A stretch of 64,000 bases of DNA from Thermoanaerobaculia bacterium (GTDB taxonomy: Bacteria > Acidobacteriota > Thermoanaerobaculia > Gp7-AA8), in contig DASYUK010000480.1 in the NCBI GenBank assembly GCA_036001325.1, positions 1,033 to 65,032 on the forward strand, in the 5' to 3' direction. Positions within the stretch are counted from its first letter, which is position 1. The number at the start of each line of letters is the position of its first letter. The translations under genes were made by a program, and so were the position numbers. Below, one piece after another: positions 6,239 to 62,273 of this stretch. The notes under the pieces are model-generated. The model made no database searches. It had not been told where the DNA came from and saw nothing but the letters and a program-made list of their open reading frames with translations.

Positions 6239-6321
6239 GGGTCGTAGGTCGTAGGTCGTAGGTGCCGTGGGCCTTTTGGCGCTGAGGCCCCGATACCTAC
6301 GACCCACGACCTACGACCTAC
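6239..6321. repeat. long imperfect palindrome built from (GTCGTAG)3 ... (CTACGAC)3 arms with an inner GGGCC/GGCCC hairpin
   Basis: Direct reading: gggtcgtaggtcgtaggtcgtaggt...acctacgacccacgacctacgacctac; overlaps the ddl stop codon; sits between two minus-strand genes. Confidence 0.8.
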
Positions 6322-7400
6322 GTAATCCTACGCGCGTTGCGCAGCCACTCGAGCGCGCCGTCGCGCCGGGCGGTACGCGATCGGTGACGCTCCAAACCGA
6401 GCTCGATGAGCATCTCGATCAATTTCGAATATTTGATCTCGGTCGCCTCCCACAGTTTGGGATACATGGAGATGGTCGTGAAGCCCGGGATCGTATTGAT
6501 CTCGTTCACGAGCAGGCGACTGGTTCCCTTCTCCAGAAAAAAGTCGACGCGCGCGTAACCGCTTGCGCCGATCGCGCGAAACGCTCCCACCGCGAGCCGT
6601 CGAATCTCTTCGGTCTTTTCCTTCGGCAGCTTCGCCGGGATGACCAGCGTCGACTTCGCGTCGGCAGCGTATTTGTCCTCATAGTCGTAAAACTCGCGTC
6701 CGGCGATGATCTCGCCAGGCACGGACGCCTGCGGTTGATCGTTGCCGAGGACTGAGACTTCGAGCTCGCGAGCGTCGACGCCGCGCTCGATCAGGATCTT
6801 GTCGTCGAATCGCAGCGCGAATTCCACTGCAGCGGCGAGATCGCCGTCGCTCTTCACCTTCGTTACGCCGATCGATGATCCGCTGTTCGCCGGCTTCACG
6901 AAATAGGGAAGCCGCAACATGTTGATGACGGCGCGCGTGACCCGCTCGCGCTCATCGCTCCACTCAGTCTCGTGCACGAGAACGTATTCGACGGTCGGCA
7001 GCTTCGCCGTCGCGAAGGCGTGCTTCATGTGTCCCTTGTCCATCCCCACCGCCGACGCCGCGACGCCCGAGCCGACATACGGCGCGCCGATCGTCTCGAG
7101 GTAACCCTGCAGAGTGCCGTCCTCCCCACCGGTGCCGTGAATCAGAGGGAAGACGACATCCGCATTGCCGGCGCGCCACCATGAGTCGAACGAGAAATCG
7201 ACATCTCCTGCATCGCTGCTCGCGCCGCCGAGGATCTCCGCACTGCGCTGCGGCGCAATGAAGCGACCATCTTTCGCCACGCAGATCGGGATGATCTCGA
7301 TGCGCGACTTCGGCGCGGCGTTCGCGACAGAACGTGCCGAGAGAATCGAGACGTCGTGCTCGGCGCTCCGGCCGCCGAAGATCAGGGCTGTGCGGATCAT
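6318..7400 (-). CDS. ddl: D-alanine--D-alanine ligase
   Basis: 360 aa; ATP-grasp fold with N-terminal IFGGRSAEHDVS and C-terminal conserved Ddl motifs. Confidence 0.95.
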   Translation of the reverse strand: MIRTALIFGGRSAEHDVSILSARSVANAAPKSRIEIIPICVAKDGRFIAPQRSAEILGGASSDAGDVDFSFDSWWRAGNADVVFPLIHGTGGEDGTLQGYLETIGAPYVGSGVAASAVGMDKGHMKHAFATAKLPTVEYVLVHETEWSDERERVTRAVINMLRLPYFVKPANSGSSIGVTKVKSDGDLAAAVEFALRFDDKILIERGVDARELEVSVLGNDQPQASVPGEIIAGREFYDYEDKYAADAKSTLVIPAKLPKEKTEEIRRLAVGAFRAIGASGYARVDFFLEKGTSRLLVNEINTIPGFTTISMYPKLWEATEIKYSKLIEMLIELGLERHRSRTARRDGALEWLRNARRIT

Positions 7401-7412
7401 GTCTTCAAGGGT

Positions 7413-7497
7413 GTCAGGTCTTCAGTTTTCAGTTTTTTTCTACGACCATTGGATTTTTCCAAGACCGGTAGAAAAAAACTGAAAACTGAAGACCTGA
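7413..7497. terminator. perfect 31-bp inverted repeat (bidirectional terminator-like) with U/A tracts
   Basis: gtcaggtcttcagttttcagtttttttctac ... gtagaaaaaaactgaaaactgaagacctgac; lies between MCE gene stop and ddl start on the minus strand. Confidence 0.75.
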
Positions 7498-7503
7498 CCC
7501 CAT

Positions 7504-9036
7504 TTACTTCCCGATCGGGATGCTTCCGAGCAGATACTTCAAATCGTCGTCGCGCCAGCGGATGCCGCCGCCAATCGTGAAAGCGACGTCATTGAGCGGG
7601 TTGTCGACGCCCGCCGTCACAAAAAGGCGCGGCGTTTTCGGTTTCTCGCGCCGCAGCGTGTACTCGCCATAAGCGCGGAAGTGGGGACTGTTGTCGTAGC
7701 GCTGGCCGAAATCGAACGCTTCGCCGGTGAGCCGTACACGCGGATTGAACTGATAATCCGCGCCGACGCCGCCGGTGTTGTCGATCAGACCGACGCGCAG
7801 GCCGAGGTTATCGAGCAACCATCCCGCCTGCGCGGTGATGCGGAAGTCGCGATCGAATCGCGTCTCGTGCGTGATTGTCGTCGTCGTGATTCCTGTTGCC
7901 GGATTCGTCACGGTGAGAATCGTGTCTTTCTCGCGCTTGCGGCCGCGTGGATCGTCCGCGAGCTCGATGTTGTAGAAGCGGTTCCGATCGACATTCGGAA
8001 TCAATCGAAGCGTGGCCGCCGATCGCGAGCTGCCGCCGAAATTCTTGATTCCGTTCTGTTCCTTGTTGAGACCAGCCATGTAGTCGGCCTTCAGACCGAG
8101 GTCCATGCCGATCTTGCTCACGCGGCCGAGCGTGGTTCTCAGCTCGGTGACGCCCGTATCGACAGAAGCGAGAGCGGACGTGAGCCGCTCGTGCGCTTCG
8201 GGACTGTAGATCAGCTTCCCGACAGTTCCCTGGCCGCTCTTCACCTGGCCGGTGATGTCGTTCAGGTTGGTCGTGGTGATCTTCAAATCGGCGGAGAGCG
8301 TCCGCAGGTTTTCGACGACGCGGCGCAGGTCCTCGCGATTCTCACCGACTGTGCCGCCGATCTGATTGGCCACACGATCGAGCGACGCGGCCAGCTTGGG
8401 GATCTCCATGCGCAGGTCCGCCGTGATCGCGCGCATGTTGCCGACGGTAGCGTCGACGTTCGCGCGGTTCGCGGCGATCAACTCGCGCGTCTCGGCGGTG
8501 ATCAGCCGGACGTTCTCGACGATGTCCTCGAGCCTCTCTTGGCCGCCCGGTCCCGCCATCACGTGCCGCAGAGATTCGGTGATCGCTTTCACGTCGGCGG
8601 CGATGAGTGAGATCTGATTCGTCACGTCATCGATCGATGCCGGCGAGGTTCCTCGCAGCGTCACGGTCACCTGCGGCGGCATCGCCGGCGCGTTCTGCGT
8701 TCCCGGATCGAGCTCGACGTATTTCTCGCCCAGGAGACCGAGGTTCGCGACGTGCGCCGAAGCGTTGCTGCGCATCGGGACGTCGTCATCGATCTCCAGC
8801 GTCACTTCCGCTTTCCCGTTCGGGAGCAGCCGGATCTTCGACACTTTTCCCTTGCGCACGCCGGCCACGCGCACGGCTGATTTCTCATCGAGACCGGCGA
8901 CATTGTCGAAGATCACCTTGACCTGGCGCGTCCCTTTGCCGCGACTGATGTCGATGTCCTCGATCTTCAGGATGAAGTAGCCGAGGATGCCGAGGATGAT
9001 CAGCATGAAGACGCCGACTTTGGCTGCTGGTGACAT
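7504..9036 (-). CDS. MCE/MlaD-family protein with long C-terminal extension
   Basis: N-terminal TM plus MCE domain (VKVIFDNVAGLDEKSAVRVAGVRKGKV); about 350 aa extension ending in beta-strand-rich region with terminal aromatic-rich segment. Confidence 0.8.
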   Translation of the reverse strand: MSPAAKVGVFMLIILGILGYFILKIEDIDISRGKGTRQVKVIFDNVAGLDEKSAVRVAGVRKGKVSKIRLLPNGKAEVTLEIDDDVPMRSNASAHVANLGLLGEKYVELDPGTQNAPAMPPQVTVTLRGTSPASIDDVTNQISLIAADVKAITESLRHVMAGPGGQERLEDIVENVRLITAETRELIAANRANVDATVGNMRAITADLRMEIPKLAASLDRVANQIGGTVGENREDLRRVVENLRTLSADLKITTTNLNDITGQVKSGQGTVGKLIYSPEAHERLTSALASVDTGVTELRTTLGRVSKIGMDLGLKADYMAGLNKEQNGIKNFGGSSRSAATLRLIPNVDRNRFYNIELADDPRGRKREKDTILTVTNPATGITTTTITHETRFDRDFRITAQAGWLLDNLGLRVGLIDNTGGVGADYQFNPRVRLTGEAFDFGQRYDNSPHFRAYGEYTLRREKPKTPRLFVTAGVDNPLNDVAFTIGGGIRWRDDDLKYLLGSIPIGK

Positions 9037-10991: not shown

Positions 10992-11015
10992 CATAACCGA
11001 GGACCGAGGACCGAG
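10992..11015. repeat. tandem heptamer (CCGAGGA)x3 immediately upstream of galU start; same 24-mer recurs at 45898-45925
   Basis: aaccgaggaccgaggaccgaggac identical at both loci. Confidence 0.8.
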
Positions 11016-11079
11016 GACTGGTGGTTGACACAGAACTTGCTTTGGCGGAATGACGTACTACTATTCTGAACTGCAGGCG

Positions 11080-17040: not shown

Positions 17041-17759
17041 GCCAGACGGTCGACCTTCTCTTCGTCGCCGCGCATGCCGATGACCTCGAGCTCTCCTGTG
17101 GAGGAACGATCGCCAAAGCGGTGAGCGATGGCACCGCGGTCGGCATGCTGGAGCTGACGCATGGCGAGATGGGAACGCGCGGCACGACGCAGACGCGAAA
17201 GCGCGAGGCGAAGAAGGCCGCGCAGATTCTCGGTGTCGCGTTTCGCGAGCATCTCGATTTCGGCGACGGCGGCCTGCGCACAGGTCGCGACGAGGAGATG
17301 CAGTTGATCGAATTTCTCCGCCGCGCGCGGCCGAAGCTCGTTTTCGCGCCCTGGCCGGATGAGCGCCATCCCGATCACGTGCGCACCGGCAAGATCGTCA
17401 CCGACGCCTCGTTCTACGCCGGTCTGCGGCAGATTCACACGAAGTTCGCCGCGCATCGGCCACAGGCAGTGATCTATTACATGCAGAATTACCTGCTGCA
17501 CCCGTCGTTCGTGATCGACGTGACGGATTCCTGGGAAACGAAGATGAAAGCGATCGGCGCTTTCCAATCGCAGTTCTTCAACTCGAAGTCGAAGGAGCCG
17601 CGAACGTTTGTTTCCGAACAGAGGTTCATGGAGATGATCGACGCCCGCGGCAAACATTTCGGCGGGCTGATCGGCGCCCGGTACGGCGAGGGGTATCTGA
17701 CGAAGCGACCGCCGCGGGTGGATGATGTGATTGCGGCTTATGCGGGACGAGAGGTGTAG
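17037..17759 (+). CDS. bshB: bacillithiol biosynthesis deacetylase BshB (LmbE/PIG-L family)
   Basis: AHADDLELSCGGTIAK...HPDH motifs of LmbE-like deacetylases; ATGA-type overlap with bshC. Confidence 0.85.
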   Translation: MSQTVDLLFVAAHADDLELSCGGTIAKAVSDGTAVGMLELTHGEMGTRGTTQTRKREAKKAAQILGVAFREHLDFGDGGLRTGRDEEMQLIEFLRRARPKLVFAPWPDERHPDHVRTGKIVTDASFYAGLRQIHTKFAAHRPQAVIYYMQNYLLHPSFVIDVTDSWETKMKAIGAFQSQFFNSKSKEPRTFVSEQRFMEMIDARGKHFGGLIGARYGEGYLTKRPPRVDDVIAAYAGREV

Positions 17760-17767
17760 TCGTTTGT

Positions 17768-17818
17768 CGTTGGTCCCTGGTCGTTAGTCAACGACTAACG
17801 ACCAGGGACTAAGGACCA
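17768..17818. promoter_or_regulatory. 15-bp perfect stem-loop with outer stem sequestering the bshA Shine-Dalgarno
   Basis: ccctggtcgttagtc aac gactaacgaccaggg, flanked by tggtcc...ggacca that includes AAGGA 5 nt upstream of bshA ATG. Confidence 0.6.
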
Positions 17819-17819
17819 A

Positions 17820-27044: not shown

Positions 27045-28088
27045 ACGACGAACACGTCCCCGTAAACTTCGCCCGTCCCATGCCGAACTGGCAGCCGCTG
27101 GTCGAGTATCGGCGCAACGGCATCGCCGAGAATACGGTGCACGGAGCAGTGTCGTGGGTTACGGGCAAGAAGCTCATGTATTCGTTTGGTGGCAACGTCG
27201 AGGTCTACGGCCGCTCGATGGTGAAGCCGCTCATGATGAAGGTGTTCGCGAAGGAATTTCGCAACGCGCTCACCGGAGAGCAGCAGGCCATCTCCGTCGC
27301 CTCGCACAACGGCGACACCGAGCACGTTCGCGTCGCGCGCTCGCTCCTGCTCAAGAGCGAGTGGGGCATGATGCAGGCACCGCACGACGTGCCGCTCGTC
27401 CAGTTCGGACGTCAGGTTCGCCGACCGCGGCGCTGGTACCACTGTTGTTCGGGCGAGCATGCCGCGATTCTCCGCGGCTGCAAATTGAAACGCTGGCAGC
27501 GCGCCGGCTACGTTCTGCCGCAACATCCCTTCTTCGTCGAGTACCTGAGCTACGTGCGTCGCGTCCTCGGCGACGACTGGAGCCCTCTCGCCATCGCAAA
27601 GGATGGCTGCGGACTTCCCACGATCGGCATGACGGTCACCGATCTTGCGAAGCTGTTCGCGAATCTCGTGACGGAGAAGAACGATGACTGGATCTGGAAC
27701 GCTATGATCGAGCATCCCGATCTGATCGGCGGCTTCAACCGGCTCGACTCGACGATCCTCAAAGCGTGTCACGGCCATGTCCTCGCCAAAGAAGGTGCCG
27801 ATGGTCTTCTCGGCCTCGCGATCGAGCATCCCGAGTATCCCGAAGGTCTCGGAGTCGTCGTGAAGGTTGCGCACGGCTGGAACCCGCAAGCCTCCTGGTA
27901 CATCGCCCGCTACATTCTCGGCGTCCTCGGATTCGAGTTTCGGAATCCTTACAAGCTTCTCCGACAGAAAGCGTTCATCGTTCCCGAAGTGATTCCGCCG
28001 CATCTGCGCGATCGCATGGCGGCGATCGTGCCGTGGGATTCGTGGGATCCCGACGTCGATCGCTGGGAGTTCGATCCGGAGGAGTTCC

Positions 28089-28102
<14 letters not shown>
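27041..28102 (+). CDS. asparaginase_II (Rhizobium ReAV-type) family amidohydrolase
   Basis: SHNGDTEH, CSGEHAA, DGCGLPT, KEGADG motifs parallel the ReAV-type L-asparaginase family. Confidence 0.7.
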
Positions 28103-30422
<2,320 letters not shown>

Positions 30423-30424
<2 letters not shown>

Positions 30425-30493
30425 TTTTGGATTTGCGATTTTGGATTTTGGATTGAGCCGAATCCAAAATCGAAAATCCAAAATCGAAAATGA
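30423..30493. promoter_or_regulatory. A/U-rich long imperfect inverted repeat of GATTTTG/CAAAATC units spanning the start codon of the downstream gene
   Basis: gattttggatttgcgattttggattttggatt gagccg aatccaaaatcgaaaatccaaaatcgaaaATG; no SD upstream of the ATG. Confidence 0.7.
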
Positions 30494-31809
30494 TTCAACG
30501 AGCCTACATCGTTCCCGGCCAACCGCACATCCTGCTCGCGCCAGACAAGAACGCCGGTTGGGCTTCACTCAAGCGAGCCTACGAGACCGTAGGTCGCGAA
30601 ATCGCGGCGAGCGGTGCCGAGCTTCTCCTGGTCTACTCGACGCAGTGGTTCTCGGTCATCGGCCATCTCTTCCAGGTCGATCCGCGGCCGAAGTGGACGC
30701 TCGTCGATCAGAACTGGTACGAGTTCGGCGAGATCCCTTACGAGTTCCGGATCGATCCGAAGTTCGGTGAGCTCTACTGCCGCATCTGCAAGGAGCACGG
30801 AATGCAGGCGGCCACCGTGAACTACCACGGCTTTCCGATCGACACGGGGACGGTCGTGGCGCTCAAGCTGCTCAATCCGAACAACGCCGTCCCCGCCTCG
30901 ATCGTCTCCTGCAACATCTACGCGGAACGCGAAGAGAGTCGTGCCCTCGGCTTCGCCGCGCGGGCGGCGATCGAGGAGTACGGCAAGAAGACGATCGTCG
31001 TCTGCGTCACGAATCTTTCGAACCGCTACGAAGTCGGCGACATCGATCCCGCGGGCGATCGCATCTCCTCGGCGAAAGACGATGAATGGAACCGCAAACT
31101 CCTGGAGATGTTCGGTGAGGGGAGGCTCGAAGACGTCGCCCAGGTCGCGCGGGAATTCGCGCGCGAAGCAAACGCGGACATGGGATTCAAAGCGATCTGG
31201 TGGCTGGCCTCGCTGATGGGCGAGCACAATCGCTACGACGGAAAAGTGTGGGATTACCAGCCGGTGTGGGGAACGGGCGCGGCGATCGTCGAGCTGACAC
31301 CGTCGGAGAAGGAGCTCGATTTCGAGAAGGAATTCGACGAGGCGCCCGTGCCGGCGTTCGCCGCGACCGGGGGCACGGGGCTGGAAACGCACAACGTCCT
31401 CGCCGAAGCGCCCCATCGCGATGAGCAACAACCGGAGGAAGTGCTGATCACGGAGAAAGCGCCGCGACCAGTCGGCCCCTATCCGCACGCGCGACGAGTC
31501 GGCGAGCTGCTGTTCACTTCGGGAATCGGTCCACGCAAACCCCGTACGAATGAGATCCCTGACGGGATCGAGGCGCAGACGCGGAGTTGTATCGAGAACA
31601 TCAGGATCATTCTCGAAGAGGCGGGAAGCTCGCTGGAGAAGGTCCTCGATGTGACGGTCTATCTCACCGATATGAAGCGCGACTTCGATCGCTTCAACAA
31701 GGTCTATGCCGAATACTTCGGAAAGATCCAGCCAACGCGGACAACCGTCGGTGTCGACTCGCTGCCGACGCCGATCTCGGTCGAGCTGAGGATCATCGCC
31801 GCGAAATGA
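30490..31809 (+). CDS. fusion of LigB-like (AmnA-like alpha subunit) domain and C-terminal RidA/YjgF (2-aminomuconate deaminase-like) domain
   Basis: aa 1-270 LigB-family fold; aa 315-439 canonical RidA (...PVGPYPHARRVGELLFTSG...DVTVYLTDM...TRTTVGV...). Confidence 0.75.
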   Translation: MIQRAYIVPGQPHILLAPDKNAGWASLKRAYETVGREIAASGAELLLVYSTQWFSVIGHLFQVDPRPKWTLVDQNWYEFGEIPYEFRIDPKFGELYCRICKEHGMQAATVNYHGFPIDTGTVVALKLLNPNNAVPASIVSCNIYAEREESRALGFAARAAIEEYGKKTIVVCVTNLSNRYEVGDIDPAGDRISSAKDDEWNRKLLEMFGEGRLEDVAQVAREFAREANADMGFKAIWWLASLMGEHNRYDGKVWDYQPVWGTGAAIVELTPSEKELDFEKEFDEAPVPAFAATGGTGLETHNVLAEAPHRDEQQPEEVLITEKAPRPVGPYPHARRVGELLFTSGIGPRKPRTNEIPDGIEAQTRSCIENIRIILEEAGSSLEKVLDVTVYLTDMKRDFDRFNKVYAEYFGKIQPTRTTVGVDSLPTPISVELRIIAAK

Positions 31810-32435
31810 GTCGCCTCATCGACATCTCTCCTCTCATCGATGCAACGATCAAGGTCTGGCCCGGCGACACGCCGTATTCGCACACGCGCACTCTCGACAT
31901 CGCCGAGGGCGCCAACATCACGTTGTCGGAGATTCGCACAACTGTGCACGTGGGTGCCCATGCTGATGCCCCGAATCACTACATCGCGGGCGGCGAAGAC
32001 ATCGCCGTGCGCCGGCTGGACTATTACGTCGGTCGATGTGCCGTCATTCATGTGGATGGCGTGCGCGGACGACGGATCGTGGCTGACGATGTCAAACGAA
32101 AGGATATCACCGCCCCGCGCGTACTGATTCGCACGAAAACATTTCCCGATCCCCGCAAGTGGAACAACGACTTCGCCAGCCTCTCGCCGGAGCTCGTCGA
32201 TGTGCTCCACAGCCGTGGGGTGATTCTCATCGGTGTCGACACACCGTCGGTCGATCCGTTCGAGTCGAAAGAGCTCGAGGCGCACAAGGCCCTCGCCCGG
32301 CACAACATGGCCAGTCTGGAAGGCCTCGTGCTCGACGACGTCGCAGAAGGGGAGTACGAGCTCATTGCGTTGCCTTTGCGCCTCGCGAACGCAGATGCCA
32401 GTCCGGTTCGCGCCGTCCTGCGAACGCTGAGTTAA
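31806..32435 (+). CDS. kynB: kynurenine formamidase / cyclase-family arylformamidase (also isatin-hydrolase family)
   Basis: About 210 aa; VWPGDTP...HVGAHADAPNHY...GVDTPSVDP motifs of PF04199; ATGA overlap with upstream gene. Confidence 0.8.
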   Translation: MSRLIDISPLIDATIKVWPGDTPYSHTRTLDIAEGANITLSEIRTTVHVGAHADAPNHYIAGGEDIAVRRLDYYVGRCAVIHVDGVRGRRIVADDVKRKDITAPRVLIRTKTFPDPRKWNNDFASLSPELVDVLHSRGVILIGVDTPSVDPFESKELEAHKALARHNMASLEGLVLDDVAEGEYELIALPLRLANADASPVRAVLRTLS

Positions 32436-32473
32436 GCCGGACACTAAGCCTACGCGATAGAATTGATTCAGTT

Positions 32474-32692
32474 ATGGCCAAACTTCTCGAGAAAGCGATC
32501 GCCGAGGCTAGGAAACTGCCAGAAAGCGATCAGGAAGCTATCGGAGCGTTGCTCCTCGCGGAGATCGAGTCCGAGAAACGATGGGACGAACTCTTCGCTC
32601 ATCCGTCGTCCGTTCTCGAAAGAATGGCGGATGATGCTCTGAGGGAGCATGAAGCGGGTCTGACTACCCCGCTCAACCCCGAAGAGTTGTGA
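32474..32692 (+). CDS. small putative addiction-module antitoxin-like protein
   Basis: 72 aa, MAKLLEKAIAEARKLPESDQEAIGALLLAEIESE; followed by GTGA-overlapping 38-codon remnant ORF. Confidence 0.45.
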   Translation: MAKLLEKAIAEARKLPESDQEAIGALLLAEIESEKRWDELFAHPSSVLERMADDALREHEAGLTTPLNPEEL

Positions 32693-32848
32693 AGTCCTCT
32701 ACCAATCCAAATTTCAAGAAGCTGTTCGCCAACCTTCCTGCTGAAGTTCGTCAGCAGGCGCGGACATCAGAGTTGGTCGCAGCTATTGCGCAGTCGGTGT
32801 GCTGAGTATCAAAATCCAAAATTGCCTCGCCGATGAGCGCGAAAACCG

Positions 32849-34885
32849 CTAAGCCGTCGCCGCTTTGCGCTCGCTCATGAACGTCTCGAGCTGATCGACG
32901 GGTAGCGGCTTGCTGAAGAGATAGCCCTGGATGATGTCGCAGCGCTGGCGGGTGAGAAACTCGAGCTGATCCTCGCGCTCCACGCCTTCGGCGACAACCT
33001 TGAGGTTCAGACTATGGGCCATCTGGATGACCGCCGTGACGATCGCGGCGTCGTTGGCGTCGGTGTTGACGTCCTTGATGAACGAGCGGTCGAGCTTGAG
33101 CGTGTCGATCGGAAAACGCTTGAGATAATTCAGCGACGAATACCCTGTACCAAAATCGTCCATTGAAATTCGGACGCCGATGGCCTTCAGCTCACGGAGG
33201 ATGTACATCGTGTGCTCCGCGTTCTGCATGGCGTTGCTCTCCGTGATCTCGACCTCGAGACAGCAAGGTTCAATGCCGGTCTCGTCGATGGCGGAGCGGA
33301 TCATGGCCACCAGGTCCGGCTGCTGGAACTGGCGAGCGGAGAGATTCACGGCCACAGTGATCTCCGGATCGATTTTGCGCTGCCACGTCTTGAGCTGACG
33401 GCAGGCCGTACGGAGGACCCACTCGCCGATGGGAACGATCAGCCCCGACTTCTCCGCAACAGAGATGAAGTGTGCCGGCGCCACCATGCCCATCTCGGGA
33501 TGGCGCCAGCGCACCAGCGCCTCGAGTCCGACGACCGCGCGCGTCGAGGCATCGATCTGCGGCTGGTAGAAGAGAACGAGCTCTTTCTGACTGAGCGCCT
33601 TGCGCAGCATATTCTCGAGCGCGAGACGCTCCACCGCCTGCGCGTTCATCGCCGGCGCATAGAGCTGATAGTTGTCGCGGCCCTGCTCCTTGGCGCGGTA
33701 CATCGCTGTGTCCGCGTTGCGGACGAGCGTCTCCGGATCGGTTCCATCGATCGGATAGAGGCTCACGCCGATGCTCGTGGTGACGAACAGCTCGCGATCG
33801 TTGACGAGGAACGGAATCTTCAGCGTCTCGATGATCTTCTGCGCGATCTTCGCCGCGTCTTCGATGTTCTCGATCTTCGGAATCAGCAGCGTGAACTCGT
33901 CGCCGCCGAAACGCGCCACAGTATCGCCCTCGCGCGTGCAGCGGCGGACGCGTTCCGCCACCCCCTTCAGCAGAGTGTCGCCGACCGTGTGGCCGAGGGA
34001 GTCGTTGATGTCTTTGAATCGATCGAGATCGAGGAAGAACACCGCGAGCTTCTGTTGACCACGATGCGCCTGCGCCAGCGACACGATGAGGCGGTCCATG
34101 AAGAGCGGCCGGTTGGGGAGTCCGGTGAGCTGATCGTGATAGGCGAGATGCTCGATCTCGACGGCCGCGAGCTCAGCGGCCTCGCGCTCGTCTTCGAGAA
34201 CGCAGGCGATCATGCCGATGGCCATCACCGACTGCAGCAGGAAGTCGACGTAACCGATGTAATTCGCATATTGGAACGTGCGGCCGGCGATGGCCCACAT
34301 CAGCGCCAGGCCGAGATTGTGAAGCTGCTCGAGTGCGTAGACGCCGAACGCGGTGCCGAGAACCGTGAAGCCGATGCCGACGCGACGCGCGCGGACACGC
34401 CACAAAACAAATGATGCGACGCCGAATCCGACCGCCGCCGCGAACGACTGCATGCCGTCGCGCGTCAGATAGCGAAGGCTCGGCGCCGACGTTCGCGAAG
34501 CGAACAATAGCGACGTGATGAGACCGAACGCGAAGAGCGCCCAGATGATCCGGCGCGACTCCGCGAGTCTGACGGGACGCCGCCGCACGAGCTCATAAAC
34601 GCCGAACAGCAGCCAGCCGATCTGGAGATAACCCGACACCCCCGCGATCATCGCGACGATCACGGCCACCGGTTCCGATGACGAAACTCTCAGTCCCTGC
34701 GCCAGCCAAAGGCCGACGGCGGTGAAGAGATTGTTGATCGCCAGCGCCGTCCATCCCAGCGTCCAGTGCAGCAGGTACGACTTTCGATACTGGCGATAGA
34801 AGCCGAAGAAGACGAGCGCCATGACCGCCGATGCGATCGTCTGCGCAATCGACGTGAGACTCGCCGCAAGATCAAACTGCGGCAT
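32849..34885 (-). CDS. membrane sensor diguanylate cyclase/phosphodiesterase (multi-TM + GGDEF + EAL)
   Basis: RFGGDEF and EALVRW / DDFGTGYSSL motifs; about 7 N-terminal TM helices. Confidence 0.9.
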   Translation of the reverse strand: MPQFDLAASLTSIAQTIASAVMALVFFGFYRQYRKSYLLHWTLGWTALAINNLFTAVGLWLAQGLRVSSSEPVAVIVAMIAGVSGYLQIGWLLFGVYELVRRRPVRLAESRRIIWALFAFGLITSLLFASRTSAPSLRYLTRDGMQSFAAAVGFGVASFVLWRVRARRVGIGFTVLGTAFGVYALEQLHNLGLALMWAIAGRTFQYANYIGYVDFLLQSVMAIGMIACVLEDEREAAELAAVEIEHLAYHDQLTGLPNRPLFMDRLIVSLAQAHRGQQKLAVFFLDLDRFKDINDSLGHTVGDTLLKGVAERVRRCTREGDTVARFGGDEFTLLIPKIENIEDAAKIAQKIIETLKIPFLVNDRELFVTTSIGVSLYPIDGTDPETLVRNADTAMYRAKEQGRDNYQLYAPAMNAQAVERLALENMLRKALSQKELVLFYQPQIDASTRAVVGLEALVRWRHPEMGMVAPAHFISVAEKSGLIVPIGEWVLRTACRQLKTWQRKIDPEITVAVNLSARQFQQPDLVAMIRSAIDETGIEPCCLEVEITESNAMQNAEHTMYILRELKAIGVRISMDDFGTGYSSLNYLKRFPIDTLKLDRSFIKDVNTDANDAAIVTAVIQMAHSLNLKVVAEGVEREDQLEFLTRQRCDIIQGYLFSKPLPVDQLETFMSERKAATA

Positions 34886-37471: not shown

Positions 37472-37557
37472 GGGTCGTCGGTCGTAGGTCATAGGTATCG
37501 GGGGCCTTATCGCCTGAATGCCCCCAGTACCCACGACCCACGACCCACGACCCAACC
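37472..37557. repeat. imperfect palindrome of (GTCGTAG)-like and (CCACGAC)3 units with inner GGGGGC/GCCCCC hairpin
   Basis: gggtcgtcggtcgtaggtcataggtatcgggggc...gcccccagtacccacgacccacgacccacgaccc; same unit family as 6239-6321. Confidence 0.75.
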
Positions 37558-42394: not shown

Positions 42395-43423
42395 ATGGCC
42401 AAACACAAGATCACCCTTCTGCCCGGCGATGGCATCGGCCCCGAGGTGACCGCCTCGGTGGTCGCGATCATCGAATGCGCGGGCGTCGACGTGGAGTGGG
42501 AGAAGTATTTCGTCGGCGCCGAGGCGATCTCGCGGTTCGGCGATCCGCTGCCGCAGGAGGTGCTCGACTCCATCCTTCGGAACAAGGTCGCGCTCAAAGG
42601 GCCGGTGACGACTCCCGTGGGTACAGGATTCACCTCGATCAATGTCCGTCTGCGCAAGACGCTCGATCTGTACGCGAACCTGCGGCCGGTGAAGTCGCTG
42701 CCGAACATCAAAACGCGCTACGAGGACATCGACCTGATCGTGGTGCGGGAGAACACCGAGAGCCTCTACGCCGGGCTCGAGCACGAAGTCGTTCCGGGAG
42801 TGGTCGAATCGTTGAAGATCATCACCGAGCGTGCCTCCACGCGCATTGCGAAATTCGCTTTCGAATATGCGCGCCTGAACGGGCGCAAGCGCGTCACGGC
42901 TGTGCACAAAGCGAACATCATGAAGCTCTCGGACGGCCTCTTCCTGAAGTGCTTTCGCGAGGTGGCGAAGCAATATCCGAACATCGTCGCCGACGACAGG
43001 ATCGTCGACAACCTCTGTATGCAGCTCGTCATGAATCCGAATCAGTTCGACGTGCTGCTGCTCGAAAATCTATACGGCGACATCGTCTCCGATCTCACCG
43101 CCGGTCTCGTCGGCGGCCTCGGCGTGGTGGGCGGAGCGAACATCGGCGAAAACGGCGCGGTGTTCGAGGCCGTCCACGGCAGCGCGCCCGACATCGCCGG
43201 CCAGAACAAGGCCAATCCACTGGCGCTGCTGCAGTCAGCGGTGATGATGCTGGTGCACATCGGCGAGGACGGCGCCGCGAAGCGTATCCACGACGCGATC
43301 CTCAAAGTCCTCGCCGCGGGACCGGAGCAGCGGACGCGTGACATCGGAGGTACCGGCACGACGGCCGATTTCACCGGCGCGATCTGCGCCGCGCTGCGGA
43401 AAGGGACGAGAGCGGGGGATTGA
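42395..43423 (+). CDS. NAD-dependent isocitrate/isopropylmalate dehydrogenase family enzyme (IDH3-like)
   Basis: 342 aa; NLYGDIVSDL and GSAPDIAG motifs. Confidence 0.85.
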   Translation: MAKHKITLLPGDGIGPEVTASVVAIIECAGVDVEWEKYFVGAEAISRFGDPLPQEVLDSILRNKVALKGPVTTPVGTGFTSINVRLRKTLDLYANLRPVKSLPNIKTRYEDIDLIVVRENTESLYAGLEHEVVPGVVESLKIITERASTRIAKFAFEYARLNGRKRVTAVHKANIMKLSDGLFLKCFREVAKQYPNIVADDRIVDNLCMQLVMNPNQFDVLLLENLYGDIVSDLTAGLVGGLGVVGGANIGENGAVFEAVHGSAPDIAGQNKANPLALLQSAVMMLVHIGEDGAAKRIHDAILKVLAAGPEQRTRDIGGTGTTADFTGAICAALRKGTRAGD

Positions 43424-43497
43424 GGTTGCGCGGTTCCGCGGTTGCGTGGTTACGCAGTCCTACCGCGCAACCCCGCAACTGCGCAACCCCGCAACCA
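43424..43497. repeat. imperfect palindrome of (GGTTGCGC)-like units facing (GCGCAACC/CCGCAACT) units, 3' arm abuts the ATG of DUF309 gene
   Basis: ggttgcgcggttccgcggttgcgtggttacgcag...ccgcgcaaccccgcaactgcgcaaccccgcaaccaATG. Confidence 0.7.
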
Positions 43498-45897: not shown

Positions 45898-45925
45898 GAA
45901 ACCGAGGACCGAGGACCGAGGACCG
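45898..45925. repeat. tandem heptamer (CCGAGGA)x4; second copy of the 10992-11015 motif
   Basis: aaaccgaggaccgaggaccgaggaccgacgac. Confidence 0.8.
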
Positions 45926-45929
45926 ACGA

Positions 45930-46145
45930 CTAAGGTTTCTTCTCGCTCTCCTGCACTGCGGCGATCGCGCCCTGGAAGCCGATCTTCGAGTGGGTGCCGT
46001 CGCAGAACGGCTTCGTCGTCGATCCACCGCAGCGGCAGAGTTTCGGTTTCTGCACCGGCACTTCCTGCCCCTGCGCGTCGATCAGTTTGAACTCGCCTTG
46101 AACGATGTAGGGACCATTCTCGGCGATCTTGATGGTGATGCTCAT
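45930..46145 (-). CDS. CDGSH-type iron-sulfur domain protein
   Basis: CRCGGSTTKPFCDGTH motif. Confidence 0.8.
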   Translation of the reverse strand: MSITIKIAENGPYIVQGEFKLIDAQGQEVPVQKPKLCRCGGSTTKPFCDGTHSKIGFQGAIAAVQESEKKP

Positions 46146-48956: not shown

Positions 48957-50021
48957 ATGAGCGAGCAAGCGACGGCCACAGGTGTCGTTCCCTCAGGGCC
49001 ATTCGTGGTCCGGGCGGTTCTGCGCACGGATGTCGGACGCGTTCGCTCCGAGAACCAGGACTTCGGGACGCTCACGACACCGGCCGAAGACAAGGGCGCG
49101 CATCCGGGCGGGCGGTTGATGATCGTCGCCGATGGCATGGGCGGGCATCGCGGTGGAGCCACGGCGTCGCGCCTCGCCGGCGAGACGATCAAGTCGTATT
49201 ACCTCGGCGGTGGAACCGACGATATCGCCGGCGCGCTTCGCGAGGCGTTGACACGCGCAAACTCGCTGATCTTCGCCGAGGCGCAGACGCATGCGGAATT
49301 GCACGGGATGGGAACGACGACTTCAGCGCTGGTCGTGCGTGGGAATGAAGCCTGGTTTGCGCACGTCGGCGACTCGCGCATCTATCTGATCCGCGGCGAT
49401 GAGATCAATCAGTTGACGGATGATCACTCGCTCGTCGCAACGATGGTCCGCGAAGGGTTGCTTACGGTGAAAGAGGCGGAGAATCATCCGCGACGAAACG
49501 TGCTCCAGAGATCGATAGGCGTCGGTGCGGAGGTGGAAATCGACGTGCGCGGGCCTCTCGAGGTGCAGCAGGGCGACACGTTCGTTCTCTGCAGCGACGG
49601 TTTGCACGGCCTCGTCAAACCGGAAGAGATCAAGGAGATCGTTGCGAACCGGCAGATCGAAGCGGCCGCCGACGATCTGGTCGATCACGCTCTCGAACGC
49701 GGCGCGCCCGACAACGTGACCGTGATCGTTGCGCGAATCGAGCGCGAGGATTTCGACGATGAGCCGACGGTCGTCGACCGCGAGCCTGATCGGGTAGCGT
49801 TCGACGATACGGTGCGGGAGGAGCGTCTCAGTGGAGCGCCGGTGTCCTCACCGGCGGTGCGTGACGCCGGTGAGGACACCGGCGCCCCACCGAGCACCGC
49901 CCCTCCCCGTCGCATCCGTGGATCAACGATCATCAAATGGATGTTGCTCTTCGTGGTCGTGCTCGGTGCGGCCGGCGCGTGGTTGTTCTTTGCCCAGCAG
50001 CAGATGTTTCATATCCGTTAG
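48957..50021 (+). CDS. PP2C-family Ser/Thr phosphatase with C-terminal TM segment
   Basis: RSENQDF, MIVADGMGGHRGG, CSDGL, ERGAPDNVTVIV motifs. Confidence 0.9.
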   Translation: MSEQATATGVVPSGPFVVRAVLRTDVGRVRSENQDFGTLTTPAEDKGAHPGGRLMIVADGMGGHRGGATASRLAGETIKSYYLGGGTDDIAGALREALTRANSLIFAEAQTHAELHGMGTTTSALVVRGNEAWFAHVGDSRIYLIRGDEINQLTDDHSLVATMVREGLLTVKEAENHPRRNVLQRSIGVGAEVEIDVRGPLEVQQGDTFVLCSDGLHGLVKPEEIKEIVANRQIEAAADDLVDHALERGAPDNVTVIVARIEREDFDDEPTVVDREPDRVAFDDTVREERLSGAPVSSPAVRDAGEDTGAPPSTAPPRRIRGSTIIKWMLLFVVVLGAAGAWLFFAQQQMFHIR

Positions 50022-59270: not shown

Positions 59271-61142
<1,872 letters not shown>

Positions 61143-61166
61143 ACCGGCCGGTTGAGAAACCGGCCG

Positions 61167-62273
61167 CTACACCTTTCTGATCACCGCGAGCGTCATGTCG
61201 TCGTCGACCGCTTTTCCGGTCGTAAAGGCGCGCCACTCCGCGACCATCTCGTCGACCAGAGCCTGCGCCGTTCCCGCCGGCTGCCAGCCGGCGATCGCTT
61301 CGACGTACTCATCGCCGAACTCTTTGTCAGTCGCGTTGCGCGCCTCGGTCAAACCGTCGGAATGCAGGAGCAGACGCTCGCCAGGCGAGAGCGTGCCGCA
61401 TCGCTCTTCCCAATGCAGCCCGCTCTTCACGCCGAGGGGATAGGCGCCGGTGCCGATGCGGTCGACGATCTTGCCGGCGATGTCGATCTTCAGAATCTGC
61501 GGATGGCCGGCGAGAGTCGCCACGAATTCGCCGTTCGGCCAGAGCAAAACGTAACAGCAGGAGAAGAACGAGCGCGACGTTCCCGTGCGGCAGAGAATGC
61601 GGTTAAGACTTCCGACGATCGCTGCCGGCGATGGGTCGATATCGAGTTGTGTGCGGAACGCGGCGTGCGCGACGGCCATGACCAATCCGGCGGCCATTCC
61701 GTGGCCCGACGCGTCGCCGAACAATATGGCGATACGGCCGTCGGCGAGCGGAACAAAGTCGTAGATGTCGCCACCGACCGTATTCGCGATGTGATTGAAC
61801 GCGGCGATCTCCCACTCTGCAGTTTTTGGTGGCTGCTTCGGAATCAGGCTGGCCTGCAGCTCGCGCGCGAGCACCAGCTCGTCGCGCATCTTGATCTTGT
61901 CGATCAGCTCCATCGCCAGCAGCAGCATCATGACGATGAATGTAGCCGTGATCTCCGCGAACGTTCGCACTGGCAGCGATTCCATCTTGATCGCCAGGCC
62001 GGCGAGGCAGACAAAGAATGAGATCAGCGAAAGGACGAAGAGCATGCGCCGCAGTGGCGACAGCCGTTTCGCCAGGCCGAAGAGAATGGCGCTTCCTGTT
62101 CGGAACCAACGGCGAACGCGCCGGCGCTCGCCCTCGATCGCCGTGTGATGATCGGCGATGAGAACTTTCTTCGTCTCCGGCCACTCGAGCGCGTAGAGAT
62201 TCGTCAGATCGTCAGCCGTGACTGAATGGATGGTGTTTTTGCCGAGGTCGAACCAGTCGCGGATGCGCGCCAC
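61167..62273 (-). CDS. SpoIIE/RsbU-family PPM phosphatase with 2 N-terminal TM helices
   Basis: GGDIYDF, GDASGHG, HSDGLTEA motifs. Confidence 0.85.
   Translation of the reverse strand: MARIRDWFDLGKNTIHSVTADDLTNLYALEWPETKKVLIADHHTAIEGERRRVRRWFRTGSAILFGLAKRLSPLRRMLFVLSLISFFVCLAGLAIKMESLPVRTFAEITATFIVMMLLLAMELIDKIKMRDELVLARELQASLIPKQPPKTAEWEIAAFNHIANTVGGDIYDFVPLADGRIAILFGDASGHGMAAGLVMAVAHAAFRTQLDIDPSPAAIVGSLNRILCRTGTSRSFFSCCYVLLWPNGEFVATLAGHPQILKIDIAGKIVDRIGTGAYPLGVKSGLHWEERCGTLSPGERLLLHSDGLTEARNATDKEFGDEYVEAIAGWQPAGTAQALVDEMVAEWRAFTTGKAVDDDMTLAVIRKV

What the first reader, a model, noticed from the sequence alone, without database searches (positions are those of the whole stretch)
30423..30493. 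AU-rich tandem-unit hairpin covering the start codon of the LigB-alpha::RidA gene
The 3' arm of the (GATTTTG)n/(CAAAATC)n palindrome runs to the ATG at 30490, and there is no Shine-Dalgarno sequence. The element sits between the two dioxygenase subunit genes of one operon.

It could set alpha:beta stoichiometry by occluding initiation or by acting as an RNase processing site. A related AAAATCCAAAAT motif recurs at 32811-32822, downstream of the operon.
Basis: partly seen in the sequence, partly recalled or inferred. Interest (0 to 1): 0.5.

Follow-up and report, generated by a model that had tools for sequence, protein, structure and literature searches.

The report
Cargo-less heptamer-repeat hairpin between genes
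The hairpin is real, but it is probably not a regulator built for this operon: it looks like the empty closing stem of a widespread insertion (inverted runs of 7-base repeats that in related bacteria enclose a small 'four-helix-bundle' gene, the kind found in ribosomal-RNA intervening sequences), wedged exactly between a stop and a start codon.

Summary
Window 30423-30491 is a 31-bp-arm hairpin of about 4.4 tandem 7-nt units per arm (GATTTTG / CAAAATC). It runs from the TGA of the LigB-beta gene to the ATG of the LigB-alpha::RidA gene. It has 33% GC in a 62% GC window, RNA MFE -43 kcal/mol (z = -6.6), and no Shine-Dalgarno sequence.

It is not operon-specific. The window holds at least five more 7/8-nt-repeat hairpins, each filling a stop-to-start gap.

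At the same beta|alpha junction in 80+ orthologous loci I found four states:
- 12 sites with no element (TTGA stop/start overlap).
- 18 sites with a 420-520-nt cassette: heptamer array, PF05635/TIGR02436 four-helix-bundle gene, inverted heptamer array.
- One internal-deletion remnant in the closest relative.
- ORF-less hairpins whose 7-mer differs in every lineage while the arms stay complementary (20 of 28 pairs covary).

In Terriglobia the window's own unit, GATTTTG, brackets four-helix-bundle genes at unrelated junctions, and the outermost arrays form the closing stem.

Best reading: a cargo-less member of an IVS-like heptamer cassette family. The stem probably keeps alpha translation coupled to beta termination, and may be an RNase III target. 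A dedicated stoichiometry device is not supported. This is a new variant of known kinds (23S IVS, heptamer repeats).

The parts
30423..30454 (+). 5' arm: about 4.4 tandem 7-nt units (GATTTTG GATTTGC GATTTTG GATTTTG GATT). It is the T-rich arm and begins inside the beta stop codon.
30455..30460 (+). Loop GAGCCG. This is the position where related cassettes carry [array - four-helix-bundle ORF - array].
   Evidence: comparison
30461..30491 (+). 3' arm: (AATCCAA AATCGAA)x2 AAT. It is the A-rich arm and ends inside the alpha start codon.
30413..30419 (+). GGGUCAU in the last beta codons. In the MFE fold it pairs with AUGAUUC 30490-30496, extending the stem over the start codon.
30422..30425 (+). 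TGAT: the beta stop codon TGA plus T. It is a direct repeat of 30491-30494. Deleting one copy and everything between them gives CTTGATTCAA, which is the sequence of the empty orthologous site L125.
   Evidence: inference; could equally be imposed by the need for a stop and a start
30491..30494 (+). TGAT: second copy of the flanking direct repeat, overlapping the alpha start codon ATG 30490-30492.
29510..30424 (+). Upstream gene: LigB-family (AmnB-like beta subunit).
30490..31809 (+). Downstream gene: LigB-family::RidA fusion (AmnA-like alpha + deaminase).
6240..6322 (-). Same class: (GGTCGTA)n / (ACCTACG)n hairpin. It fills the gap between the stop of the Ddl gene (6318-7400, minus strand) and the start of the next minus-strand gene.
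7407..7504 (-). Same class: 37-nt arms, 95% complementary, containing (TTCAGTT)n. It lies between the stop of the MlaD-like gene (7504) and the Ddl start (7400).
17759..17819 (+). Same class: (GTCGTTG)-type hairpin running from the TAG of the PIG-L gene to the ATG (17820) of the glycosyltransferase gene.
37473..37554 (+). Same class: (GGTCGTA)n / (ACCCACG)n hairpin after the stop at 37470. Its loop resembles the reverse complement of the loop of the 6240 copy.
43424..43496 (+). Same class but with period 8: (GGTTGCGC)n / (GCGCAACC)n. It runs from the TGA at 43421-43423 to the ATG at 43498.
32811..32823 (+). AAAATCCAAAATT, 1.8 units of the 3'-arm motif. It may be a relic of a second copy, but it is within chance expectation.

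Best explanation
The hairpin is a cargo-less (ORF-less) member of a family of intercistronic insertions found in Acidobacteriota. Each is bounded by inverted arrays of 4-5 tandem heptamers. In their full form they enclose a about 120-aa four-helix-bundle gene (PF05635/TIGR02436, the '23S rRNA intervening-sequence protein', Avd-like).

SHOWN
- The beta|alpha junction of this operon is occupied in related Thermoanaerobaculia by such a cassette.
- The closest relative carries an internal-deletion remnant of it.
- The window's clade carries ORF-less hairpins. Their unit sequence differs in every lineage, yet both arms change together.
- The window's own unit, GATTTTG, forms the closing stem around four-helix-bundle genes at unrelated junctions in Terriglobia.

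INFERRED: how it works
- The arrays pair, at least in the polycistronic RNA, into a about 31-bp stem. This loops out whatever lies between them and places the upstream stop codon and the downstream start codon at the base of one helix.
- In the window this replaces the ancestral TTGA stop/start overlap. A ribosome terminating at UGA 30422-30424 covers about 13 nt of the 5' arm, melts the outer half of the stem and frees the otherwise paired, SD-less AUG. Alpha translation therefore stays coupled to beta translation, which would explain why the insertion is tolerated only at this exact position.
- A perfect-enough 25-31-bp stem is also a plausible RNase III substrate, as in 23S IVSs.

The element is best seen as selfish or derived DNA with incidental effects on expression, not as a purpose-built stoichiometry controller. 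How the family spreads is unknown.
For: **Same junction in orthologues**
- Twelve sites are empty.
- Eighteen sites carry array-ORF-array cassettes. Arms are 26-36 nt and 96-100% complementary; loops are 350-430 nt.
- The ORF matches PF05635 at E 5e-15 to 8e-18 and TIGR02436 at E 1e-19 to 2e-23, both above cut-off. Its PDB relative is 2RLD.
- The ORF is under purifying selection, with median dN/dS 0.21.

**Remnant in the closest relative**
- L001 (94% identity) has AAATTGA arms and a 115-nt remnant. The remnant keeps the ORF's N-terminus (HMM E 9e-6) and its C-terminal TTIVKKSRS.

**Arms change together**
- Eight unit types share the core xxAT(T/G)xx: AAATTGA, GAATTGA, GGATTGA, GAATTGT, GAATGCA, GAATGCT, GAATTTC, and the window's GGATTTT.
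- In every element the 5' unit equals the reverse complement of the 3' unit.
- 96.2% of cells are paired and 20/28 pairs change on both sides; 0/500 shuffles reach this, and slid controls give <=57% paired.

**Not neutral decay**
- Host-gene dS within the window clade is 0.66-1.5, yet periodicity and complementarity persist.

**Same unit as the window, different loci**
- In Terriglobia (RNase J|BacA and PilC|PilB) the layout is: stop, (GATTTTG)4-5..., (CAAAATC)4, FHB ORF, (GATTTTG)3-4..., (CAAAATC)4-5, then 4 nt and the ATG.
- The fold of the 906-nt insert pairs the outermost T-array with the outermost A-array (z = -7.3).

**Solo and gene-bearing copies of one unit type share a contig**
- L214 and L126 each have both forms. 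L137 has a remnant at the neighbouring junction. L149 has two GAATGCA hairpins.

**Polarity relative to genes, in 120 loci from other genomes**
- The T-rich array starts <=15 nt after a long ORF's stop in 26/125 cases, against 2/125 for the other orientation (random 1.6%; p = 6e-20).
- The A-rich array ends <=15 nt before an ATG in 15/125 against 2/125.

**Class membership in the window**
- At least 6 such hairpins are present, all filling stop-to-start gaps.

**Precedent**
- The Coxiella 23S IVS has an S23p (PF05635) ORF, a 28-bp terminal stem cut by RNase III, and tandem heptamers whose number varies between strains (PMC4990558).
Against: - No four-helix-bundle gene lies in the 64-kb window (the profile used was narrow).
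- At this junction the gene-bearing copies use AAATTGA/GAATTGA/GGATTGA units, not GATTTTG. In-situ decay therefore cannot be told apart from replacement by a different hairpin family.
- All close homologues of the junction's FHB protein (66-97% identity) sit at this same junction. This speaks for long vertical residence rather than active hopping.
- Among 120 GATTTTG-array loci from other genomes, only one has a detectable FHB gene nearby. Heptamer arrays may therefore exist independently, and the gene could be a secondary insertion into pre-existing hairpins.
- Hairpins of this type also precede tRNA genes, so translational coupling cannot be the general rationale.
- Covariation in a DNA palindrome can be maintained by DNA-level conversion between the arms, without any RNA function. 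The alignment was also built from windows chosen for complementarity.
- RNase III cleavage, coupling and mobility are all untested.
Confidence: 0.65

Rival explanations
1. Dedicated post-transcriptional regulator. The hairpin evolved in this operon to set the alpha:beta ratio, by masking the alpha start codon or by providing an RNase cleavage site.
For: The AUG and the 16 nt before it are paired in a -43 kcal/mol stem, and no SD is present. The hairpin is maintained (87-96% complementarity) although host synonymous sites have diverged by dS >= 0.66 from the nearest relatives.
Against: Twelve orthologous operons have no element and the same gene order. Others have a 0.4-0.5-kb gene-bearing cassette, GC-rich palindromes or different 7-mers at the site. 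Similar hairpins sit at at least five unrelated junctions in the window, and before tRNA genes elsewhere.
Confidence: 0.1
2. Exapted RNA-processing or mRNA-stability element, like REP/BIME, Correia or IVS stems. The stem is cut by RNase III, or blocks 3' exonucleases, splitting the operon mRNA into segments of different stability. This is not exclusive of the best explanation.
For: The stem of 25-31 bp is in the range of RNase III substrates. The homologous architecture in 23S rRNA is cut by RNase III in vitro, with ends mapped in the stem (PMC4990558). The same hairpins occur just upstream of tRNA genes, where only RNA processing is relevant. Arrays show strong strand polarity relative to transcription.
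Against: There are no transcript data. The stem is AU-rich with 4 mismatches and alternative registers. Presence/absence among orthologues shows that processing is not required for the operon.
Confidence: 0.3
3. Local by-product of replication. A simple-sequence (7-nt) repeat expanded by slippage and was turned into a palindrome by template switching. On this view it has no relation to any cassette or gene and no function.
For: Tandem 7-mers vary by whole units between relatives. Alternative registers exist. Heptamer arrays without hairpin partners occur in the window at 220-248, 10996-11018 and 45901-45930.
Against: - The same junction carries gene-bearing cassettes with the same architecture in 18 relatives, and a deletion remnant in the closest one.
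- Array length has a mode at 4.5-5.5 units rather than a geometric decay.
- Arrays sit exactly at stop and start codons, with polarity.
- The identical unit recurs around FHB genes in another class of Acidobacteriota.
Confidence: 0.1
4. Intrinsic transcription terminator, attenuator, or assembly artefact.
For: It is a strong hairpin, and contigs of relatives often break near it (L003, L124, L140, L146, L150).
Against: No U-tract follows the stem, and the terminator scan finds nothing there. The stem is AU-rich. The same architecture is assembled independently in dozens of metagenomes and MAGs. Rfam has only sub-threshold miRNA-hairpin look-alikes.
Confidence: 0.03

Closest known systems
23S rRNA intervening sequences carrying an S23p / PF05635 ORF (Leptospira, Coxiella, Xanthomonas; PMC4990558)
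   Same: - Terminal inverted repeats form a about 28-31-bp closing stem around a about 120-aa four-helix-bundle ORF on the host transcript's strand.
- Tandem heptamers lie next to the ORF, and their number varies.
- The ORF decays in some lineages.
- The insert is looped out of a host RNA whose function must be preserved.
   Different: - The host RNA here is an mRNA, at a stop/start junction, not helix 25/45 of 23S rRNA.
- The arms consist entirely of tandem heptamers.
- The window copy has no ORF at all (6-nt loop).
- RNase III excision has not been shown.
Tandem heptamer repeats next to start codons: cyanobacterial STRR (Mazel 1990, own knowledge), TAACTGA repeats of Beggiatoaceae/Cyanobacteria/Bacteroidetes (PMC4679880), Nostoc TTTTGAA/TTCAAAA repeats (bioRxiv 10.1101/2022.06.06.494920), Geobacter 4x heptanucleotide elements (PMC2700814)
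   Same: - 7-nt units in 3-6 copies.
- They are intergenic, end a few nt before start codons that lack an SD, and carry other related heptamers nearby.
- Indels come in 7-nt steps.
- The taxa overlap: a scan for the window's unit hit 51 cyanobacterial, 30 acidobacterial, 13 Chloroflexota and other loci, and only 1 labelled Proteobacteria.
   Different: Those reports describe mainly direct repeats and propose protein-binding or translational roles. Neither the inverted, stem-forming arrangement spanning stop to start, nor the link to PF05635 cassettes, is described in the papers I could search.
REP/BIME and REPIN elements (PMC3116915; PMC3733652) and Correia elements of Neisseria (own knowledge)
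   Same: Short palindromic, multi-copy, intercistronic insertions. They are co-transcribed with operons. They are known to affect mRNA stability, or to be cut by RNase III in the case of Correia elements.
   Different: There is no GTAG/CGTC tag and no RAYT transposase nearby. The arms are tandem arrays. The sequence is not conserved between copies; only the architecture is.
Hairpin-mediated translational coupling / start-codon masking in polycistronic mRNAs (general principle, own knowledge)
   Same: The downstream start is sequestered by pairing with the end of the upstream ORF. Only a terminating ribosome should expose it.
   Different: Here this is an inferred consequence of an inserted element, not a conserved feature of the operon.
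Avd accessory protein of diversity-generating retroelements (PF05635-like; PMC10053308)
   Same: The cargo protein of the full-length cassettes belongs to the same four-helix-bundle superfamily. The solved relatives are pentamers.
   Different: No reverse transcriptase, template/variable repeats or target gene lie next to the cassettes.

Membership tests
23S rRNA IVS (S23p-type) | Inserted in helix 25 or 45 of the 23S rRNA gene | tested here: not met
   It lies between two protein-coding genes. There is no rRNA match in Rfam.
23S rRNA IVS (S23p-type) | Terminal inverted repeats forming a long closing stem | tested here: met
   31-nt arms in the window. 26-36-nt arms at 96-100% complementarity in orthologous cassettes. 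The outer arrays close the 906-nt insert in L236.
23S rRNA IVS (S23p-type) | PF05635 ORF in the loop | tested here: not met
   The window loop is 6 nt. The feature is met in 18 orthologous sites and in the Terriglobia loci.
23S rRNA IVS (S23p-type) | Excised by RNase III | not testable with these tools
   Needs transcript-end mapping or an in-vitro cleavage assay.
Tandem heptamer repeats (STRR / TAACTGA-type) | At least 3 head-to-tail copies of a 7-nt unit in an intergenic region | tested here: met
   TRF period 7, with 4.3-4.4 copies on each arm.
Tandem heptamer repeats (STRR / TAACTGA-type) | Ends within a few nt of a start codon that lacks an SD | tested here: met
   The 3' arm ends inside the ATG and there is no SD. 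Across genomes the enrichment is 15/125 against 2/125.
MITE / non-autonomous transposon | Terminal inverted repeats plus a target-site duplication | tested here: inconclusive
   TIRs are present. Flanking TGAT/TGA direct repeats occur in the window, L002, L003 and L124, and removing them reconstitutes the empty-site sequence. However, a stop and a start codon are required there in any case.
MITE / non-autonomous transposon | Multiple near-identical copies in one genome, and an autonomous partner encoding a transposase | tested here: not met
   There is only one GATTTTG hairpin in the 64-kb window. The two GGTCGTA copies share similar loops. No transposase is associated, and the FHB protein has no known catalytic activity.
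REP / REPIN | 20-40-bp palindrome with a conserved GTAG or CGTC tag, and an associated RAYT gene | tested here: not met
   The sequence has no such tag. RAYT was not searched for beyond the Pfam scans of neighbouring genes.
Intrinsic terminator | GC-rich stem followed by a U-tract | tested here: not met
   The scan of 27500-33500 finds none at the site. The stem is 33% GC and is followed by AUGAUUCAAC.
Any Rfam family | Score at or above the gathering threshold | tested here: not met
   The best match is mir-2574 at 41 bits against a threshold of 90, on both strands. This is a generic hairpin match.

The most novel reading that the evidence does not exclude
Inverted heptamer arrays plus the pentameric, Avd-like four-helix-bundle protein form a previously unrecognised kind of self-propagating cassette. 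It settles wherever a host RNA can tolerate a looped-out insert: stop/start junctions of operons, pre-tRNA spacers, and 23S helices 25/45.

On this reading the protein recognises its own arrays. Two observations fit that:
- The arrays stay sequence-identical over dS > 1.4 when the gene is present, but change unit type freely once it is lost.
- Array length peaks at 4.5-5.5 units, close to one unit per subunit of a pentamer.

ORF-less hairpins such as the one in the window would then be its non-autonomous derivatives. This would tie together three old puzzles: the origin of rRNA IVSs, the function of PF05635, and the origin of STRR-type heptamer repeats in Cyanobacteria, Acidobacteriota, Chloroflexota, Planctomycetota, Verrucomicrobiota and Bacteroidota.
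Probability: 0.2. Interest if true: 0.85.

Novelty: new variant of a known kind. Interest (0 to 1): 0.6.

Why it matters
Tandem heptamers next to start codons, and the 'intervening-sequence protein' family PF05635, have each been known for about 30 years without a mechanism.

This locus gives a natural series at one orthologous site: empty, gene-bearing cassette, deletion remnant, bare hairpin. The series links the two puzzles and makes several points directly testable:
- Does the stem preserve translational coupling?
- Is the stem an RNase III site?
- Does the four-helix-bundle protein bind its own heptamer arrays?
- How do both arms change in concert?

Practical point: such hairpins break short-read assemblies and mislead start-codon calling. 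ORFs here are extended through the arrays.

Tried and rejected
- **Rfam scan of 29000-33500.** Only sub-threshold miRNA-precursor look-alikes, on both strands. Rejected as generic hairpin matches.
- **Terminator/promoter scan.** Nothing at the site.
- **Exact-protein look-up of the alpha::RidA product.** Not on record, so the source genome could not be identified. Relatives point to Thermoanaerobaculia.
- **First attempt at a start-codon proximity test.** It accepted any start codon and ORFs >=80 codons, and was uninformative because random positions scored 28%. It was replaced by ATG-only, >=150-codon ORFs, with the opposite orientation as internal control.
- **Search for FHB genes near GATTTTG arrays in 120 loci from other genomes.** I used a profile built from the junction's ORFs, plus one iteration. 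Only L099 was found. The profile is narrow, so absence in cyanobacterial loci is weak evidence.
- **Hopping-element idea.** It predicted close FHB homologues at many loci. The look-ups instead showed them all at the same junction, so recent mobility of that subfamily is not supported.
- **Stop codons in the arrays.** I considered that the arrays supply stop codons in all frames. This is true for AAATTGA-type units (TGA) but not for GATTTTG or GAATTTC, so it was dropped as a general rule.
- **Literature searches.** No paper in the searchable library links PF05635 cassettes to inverted heptamer arrays at operon junctions. Elhai 2008 and Mazel 1990 are not in the library and are cited from memory.
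Full report
**1. The observation**

The window at 30422-30492 reads TGA-TTTTGGATTTGCGATTTTGGATTTTGGATT-GAGCCG-AATCCAAAATCGAAAATCCAAAATCGAAA-ATG.
- The arms 30424-30454 and 30461-30491 are 31 nt long and 87% complementary, with a 6-nt loop. Because the arms are tandem arrays, a slipped register gives 25-nt arms at 96%.
- TRF finds period 7 with 4.3-4.4 copies on each side.
- As RNA, 30405-30510 folds at -43.2 kcal/mol, against -20.9 +/- 3.4 for shuffles (z = -6.56, 0/200). The stem extends outward so that AUG 30490-30492 pairs with CAU 30417-30419 in the last codons of the upstream gene.
- The hairpin is 33% GC in a 62% GC window. The 25 nt before the ATG have no SD-like motif.
- The upstream ORF 29510-30424 is LigB family. 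The downstream ORF 30490-31809 is LigB + RidA. An aldehyde dehydrogenase gene precedes them and a cyclase-family gene follows, with ATGA-type overlaps at those junctions.
- Relatives of the fusion protein are named 2-aminophenol 1,6-dioxygenase alpha subunit by JGI.

The second motif at 32811 is a single 13-mer match with one mismatch, against 0.54 expected. It lies in a 413-bp stretch (32436-32848) that is absent from L001 and L003, where the cyclase and GGDEF-EAL genes abut.

**2. It is not alone in the window**

TRF and the inverted-repeat search show the same architecture at five other places:
- 6240-6322: GGTCGTA/ACCTACG.
- 7407-7504: 37-nt arms containing TTCAGTT units.
- 17759-17819: GTCGTTG-type.
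- 37473-37554: GGTCGTA/ACCCACG, with a loop resembling the reverse complement of the 6240 copy's loop.
- 43424-43496: period 8, GGTTGCGC.

Each fills the gap between the stop of one gene and the start of the next co-directional gene. The junctions are MlaD-like|Ddl, Ddl|next gene, PIG-L|GT4, and others.

Long inverted repeats of this quality number 5 in the window and 0 in each of 30 Markov simulations. The finding is therefore one member of a genome-wide class, which already argues against a locus-specific purpose.

**3. The same junction in relatives**

The source genome is not in the protein index. The fusion protein has thousands of relatives. I fetched three by exact look-up (L001-L003) and 80 by a metagenome scan (L124-L203), and mapped the beta|alpha junction in each. 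Four states occur.

(a) No element, in 12 loci. The genes are 2 nt apart or overlapping in TTGA/GTGA/ATGA, for example L125 ...GCTTGATTCAAAAG.

(b) A 420-520-nt insert, in 18 loci. It consists of 4-8 copies of AAATTGA, GAATTGA, GGATTGA or GAATTGT, then a about 120-aa ORF on the operon strand, then the reverse-complement array.
- The arms are 26-36 nt and 96-100% complementary.
- The ORF is PF05635 (E 5e-15 and 8e-18; cut-off 33.8 bits) and TIGR02436 'four helix bundle protein'. It is related to PDB 2RLD.
- It evolves under purifying selection, with median dN/dS 0.21.

(c) ORF-less heptamer hairpins: the window (GGATTTT/CGATTTT), L002 (GAATTTC), L003 (GAATGCT) and L124 (GAATGCA/GAATTCA). L149 has GAATGCA behind a different upstream gene.
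- L001, the closest relative (94%), has AAATTGA arms around a 115-nt loop. The loop retains the N-terminus of the ORF (GKGSDLRERAFEFAC; profile E 9e-6) and its C-terminal TTIVKKSRS. It is an internal-deletion derivative.

(d) Unrelated GC-rich palindromes (L130, L142, L203), and one 1.4-kb insertion (L133).

**4. The arms co-vary**

Put in a common register, the units share the core xxAT(T/G)xx and differ by one or two steps from each other. In every element the consensus 5' unit equals the reverse complement of the 3' unit.

On an alignment of 17 elements (28 pairs):
- 96.2% of cells are standard pairs.
- 20 of 28 pairs show changes on both sides.
- No shuffle out of 500 reaches the observed values, and sliding the partner by one column drops pairing to 44-57%.

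Caveats: the windows were chosen for complementarity, and a DNA palindrome can be homogenised by conversion between its arms. The result shows that pairing is maintained. It does not show that RNA is the level of selection.

Host-gene dS within the window's clade is 0.66-1.5. This is the same range as among loci that all keep AAATTGA arms around the gene (0.55-2.4). The cassette ORFs themselves have dS of about 1.4-2.

Two things follow. The arrays are conserved far beyond synonymous sites when the gene is present. They change unit type, but keep periodicity and complementarity, when the gene is gone. Neutral decay is excluded. Whether the window's unit arose in situ or by replacement cannot be decided.

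**5. The window's own unit, elsewhere**

- 51 Cyanobacteria
- 30 Acidobacteriota
- 13 Chloroflexota
- 6 Verrucomicrobiota
- 6 Bacteroidota
- 5 Planctomycetota
- 3 Latescibacterota
- 6 others, of which one is labelled Proteobacteria

None is from Firmicutes or Actinobacteria. Many are hairpins ending at an ATG (L009, L017, L041, L101, L103, L116, L123).

The arrays are polar with respect to genes:
- The T-rich orientation begins within 15 nt after the stop of a long ORF in 26/125 cases, against 2/125 for the other orientation (random 1.6%; p = 6e-20).
- The A-rich orientation ends within 15 nt before an ATG in 15/125 cases against 2/125 (p = 0.002).

This is exactly the arrangement in the window.

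Only one of these loci (L099, Acidobacteriota) had a detectable four-helix-bundle gene. Using that protein as query gave >8000 relatives, mostly Terriglobia. Look-ups placed them between RNase J and BacA and between PilC and PilB.

There the layout is: stop-TGA, (GATTTTG)4-5, spacer, (CAAAATC)4, about 25 nt, FHB ORF, (GATTTTG)3-4, spacer, (CAAAATC)4-5, 4 nt, ATG of the next gene. In the predicted fold of the 906-nt insert of L236, the outermost T-array pairs with the outermost A-array, closing the whole insert (z = -7.3).

The window hairpin is this closing stem with a 6-nt loop. A deletion between the two directly repeated T-arrays would produce it.

**6. Signs of duplication, but not of recent hopping**

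- L214 and L126 carry an ORF-less AAATTGA hairpin at the Aldedh|beta junction, in addition to the gene-bearing AAATTGA cassette at beta|alpha.
- L137 has a deletion remnant at Aldedh|beta and an empty beta|alpha site.
- L149 has two GAATGCA hairpins.

So unit types are shared between copies within a genome.

On the other hand, all close homologues of the junction's protein sit at this same junction, which indicates long vertical residence.

Flanking direct repeats exist: TGAT in the window and L003, TGA in L002, ATGA in L124. Removing one copy plus the insert from the window gives CTTGATTCAA, the L125 empty-site sequence. But a stop and a start codon are needed there in any case, so a target-site duplication is only suggested.

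**7. How it most likely works**

Shown: the architecture, its position, its maintenance, and its kinship with gene-bearing cassettes.

Inferred: the arrays pair and loop out the insert, so the upstream stop and the downstream start lie at the base of one helix.
- In the window the ancestral TTGA overlap is replaced by UGA...AUG across the stem.
- A ribosome terminating at 30422-30424 should melt roughly 30413-30436 and free 30474-30496. This exposes an A-rich, SD-less initiation region.
- That would preserve translational coupling. It would also explain why surviving insertions sit exactly at stop/start junctions.

The stem is also a plausible RNase III substrate, by analogy with the Coxiella 23S IVS. 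That IVS has an S23p/PF05635 ORF, a 28-bp terminal stem cleaved by RNase III, and tandem GACAGAT heptamers whose number differs between strains (PMC4990558).

Hairpins of the same kind immediately precede tRNA genes in L094 and L028. A purely translational rationale therefore cannot be general, and an RNA-processing or DNA-level property must also be involved.

**8. Comparison with what is known**

- Heptamer repeats abutting SD-less start codons are described for Beggiatoaceae, Cyanobacteria and Bacteroidetes (PMC4679880), Nostoc (bioRxiv 10.1101/2022.06.06.494920) and Geobacter (PMC2700814). In all cases the function is unresolved.
- PF05635 proteins are known from rRNA IVSs and as relatives of the DGR accessory protein Avd (PMC10053308).
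- In the searchable library I found no description of PF05635 cassettes bounded by inverted heptamer arrays at operon junctions, or of their ORF-less hairpin derivatives.

I therefore file the window element as a new variant of known kinds. It works like an IVS closing stem or a palindromic intercistronic insertion. It fails two defining features of the 23S IVS family: location in 23S, and an ORF in the loop.

**9. Verdict**

- The best explanation is a cargo-less member of an IVS-like heptamer cassette family (confidence 0.65).
- Interest is 0.6. The single hairpin is modest, but the orthologous series it opens links two long-unexplained features of bacterial genomes.

Noticed in passing
window 220-248; 10996-11018; 45901-45930: Single-arm heptamer arrays with no inverted partner nearby. 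(CAGGTCG)x4 lies just after the ATG of ORF 214-1470, so the true start may be downstream. (ACCGAGG)x3.3 and x4.3, the same unit, occur at two sites 35 kb apart.
   Followed up: no
window 49827-49894 and 61123-61172: GC-rich palindromes that are not heptamer-based: 30-nt arms at 93%, and 29-nt overlapping arms. Different GC-rich palindromes occupy the beta|alpha junction in L130, L142 and L203. This suggests a second family of junction-filling palindromes.
   Followed up: no
window 32436-32848: A 413-bp segment that is absent from L001 and L003, where the cyclase and GGDEF-EAL genes abut. It contains a 59-72-aa ORF (MAKLLEKAIAEARKLPESDQ...) with no Pfam match, a short truncated ORF, and the AAAATCCAAAAT motif. 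It may be a decayed toxin-antitoxin-like insertion.
   Followed up: partly
L094 380-450 and 1105-1145; L028 267-461: Heptamer hairpins and arrays of the GATTTTG family lie within tRNA gene clusters. They end a few nt before mature tRNA 5' ends (tRNA-Met at 453, tRNA-Asn at 1160 in L094). So the elements also live in non-coding RNA precursors.
   Followed up: partly
all fetched loci: Heptamer array length is not geometrically distributed. Apart from chance 2.5-unit matches, it has a mode at 4.5-5.5 units (31-38 nt) in three independent sets of loci. The solved PF05635 relatives are pentamers, but this may be coincidence or may reflect a stem-length constraint.
   Followed up: partly
L129 2180-2500: The 3' end of the cassette (last about 30 codons of the FHB ORF plus the TTTTCAA array) and the first about 20 codons of the alpha gene are tandemly duplicated. 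This points to recombination between arrays.
   Followed up: no
L115 4315-4430: Three (GATTTTG)x4.5 arrays in direct orientation, separated by 8-9-nt spacers and followed by a (CACGCCT)-type array. This is a higher-order repeat of arrays in an Anaerolineae MAG.
   Followed up: no
L133 2501 upstream (1.4-kb gap): At the beta|alpha junction this locus has a 1.4-kb insertion that appears to encode a protein on the opposite strand. It was not analysed.
   Followed up: no
L126, L138, L139 etc. (5' arm): In gene-bearing cassettes the upstream beta ORF reads into the first heptamers and terminates at the TGA supplied by the AAATTGA/GAATTGA unit. With period 7 the array offers TGA in all three frames. 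GGATTGA arrays also contain GAGGA just upstream of the cassette ORF.
   Followed up: partly
window 30490-31809 and relatives: The LigB-alpha::RidA fusion is widespread: 3000 hits at E<=1e-20 among the candidates scored. In more distant relatives the upstream neighbour is a different gene (ending ...YVH*) instead of the LigB-beta gene.
   Followed up: no
L210-L212: Here the beta gene is reduced to a 51-aa ORF, while the FHB cassette and the alpha::RidA gene persist. The cassette therefore outlives its upstream neighbour.
   Followed up: no
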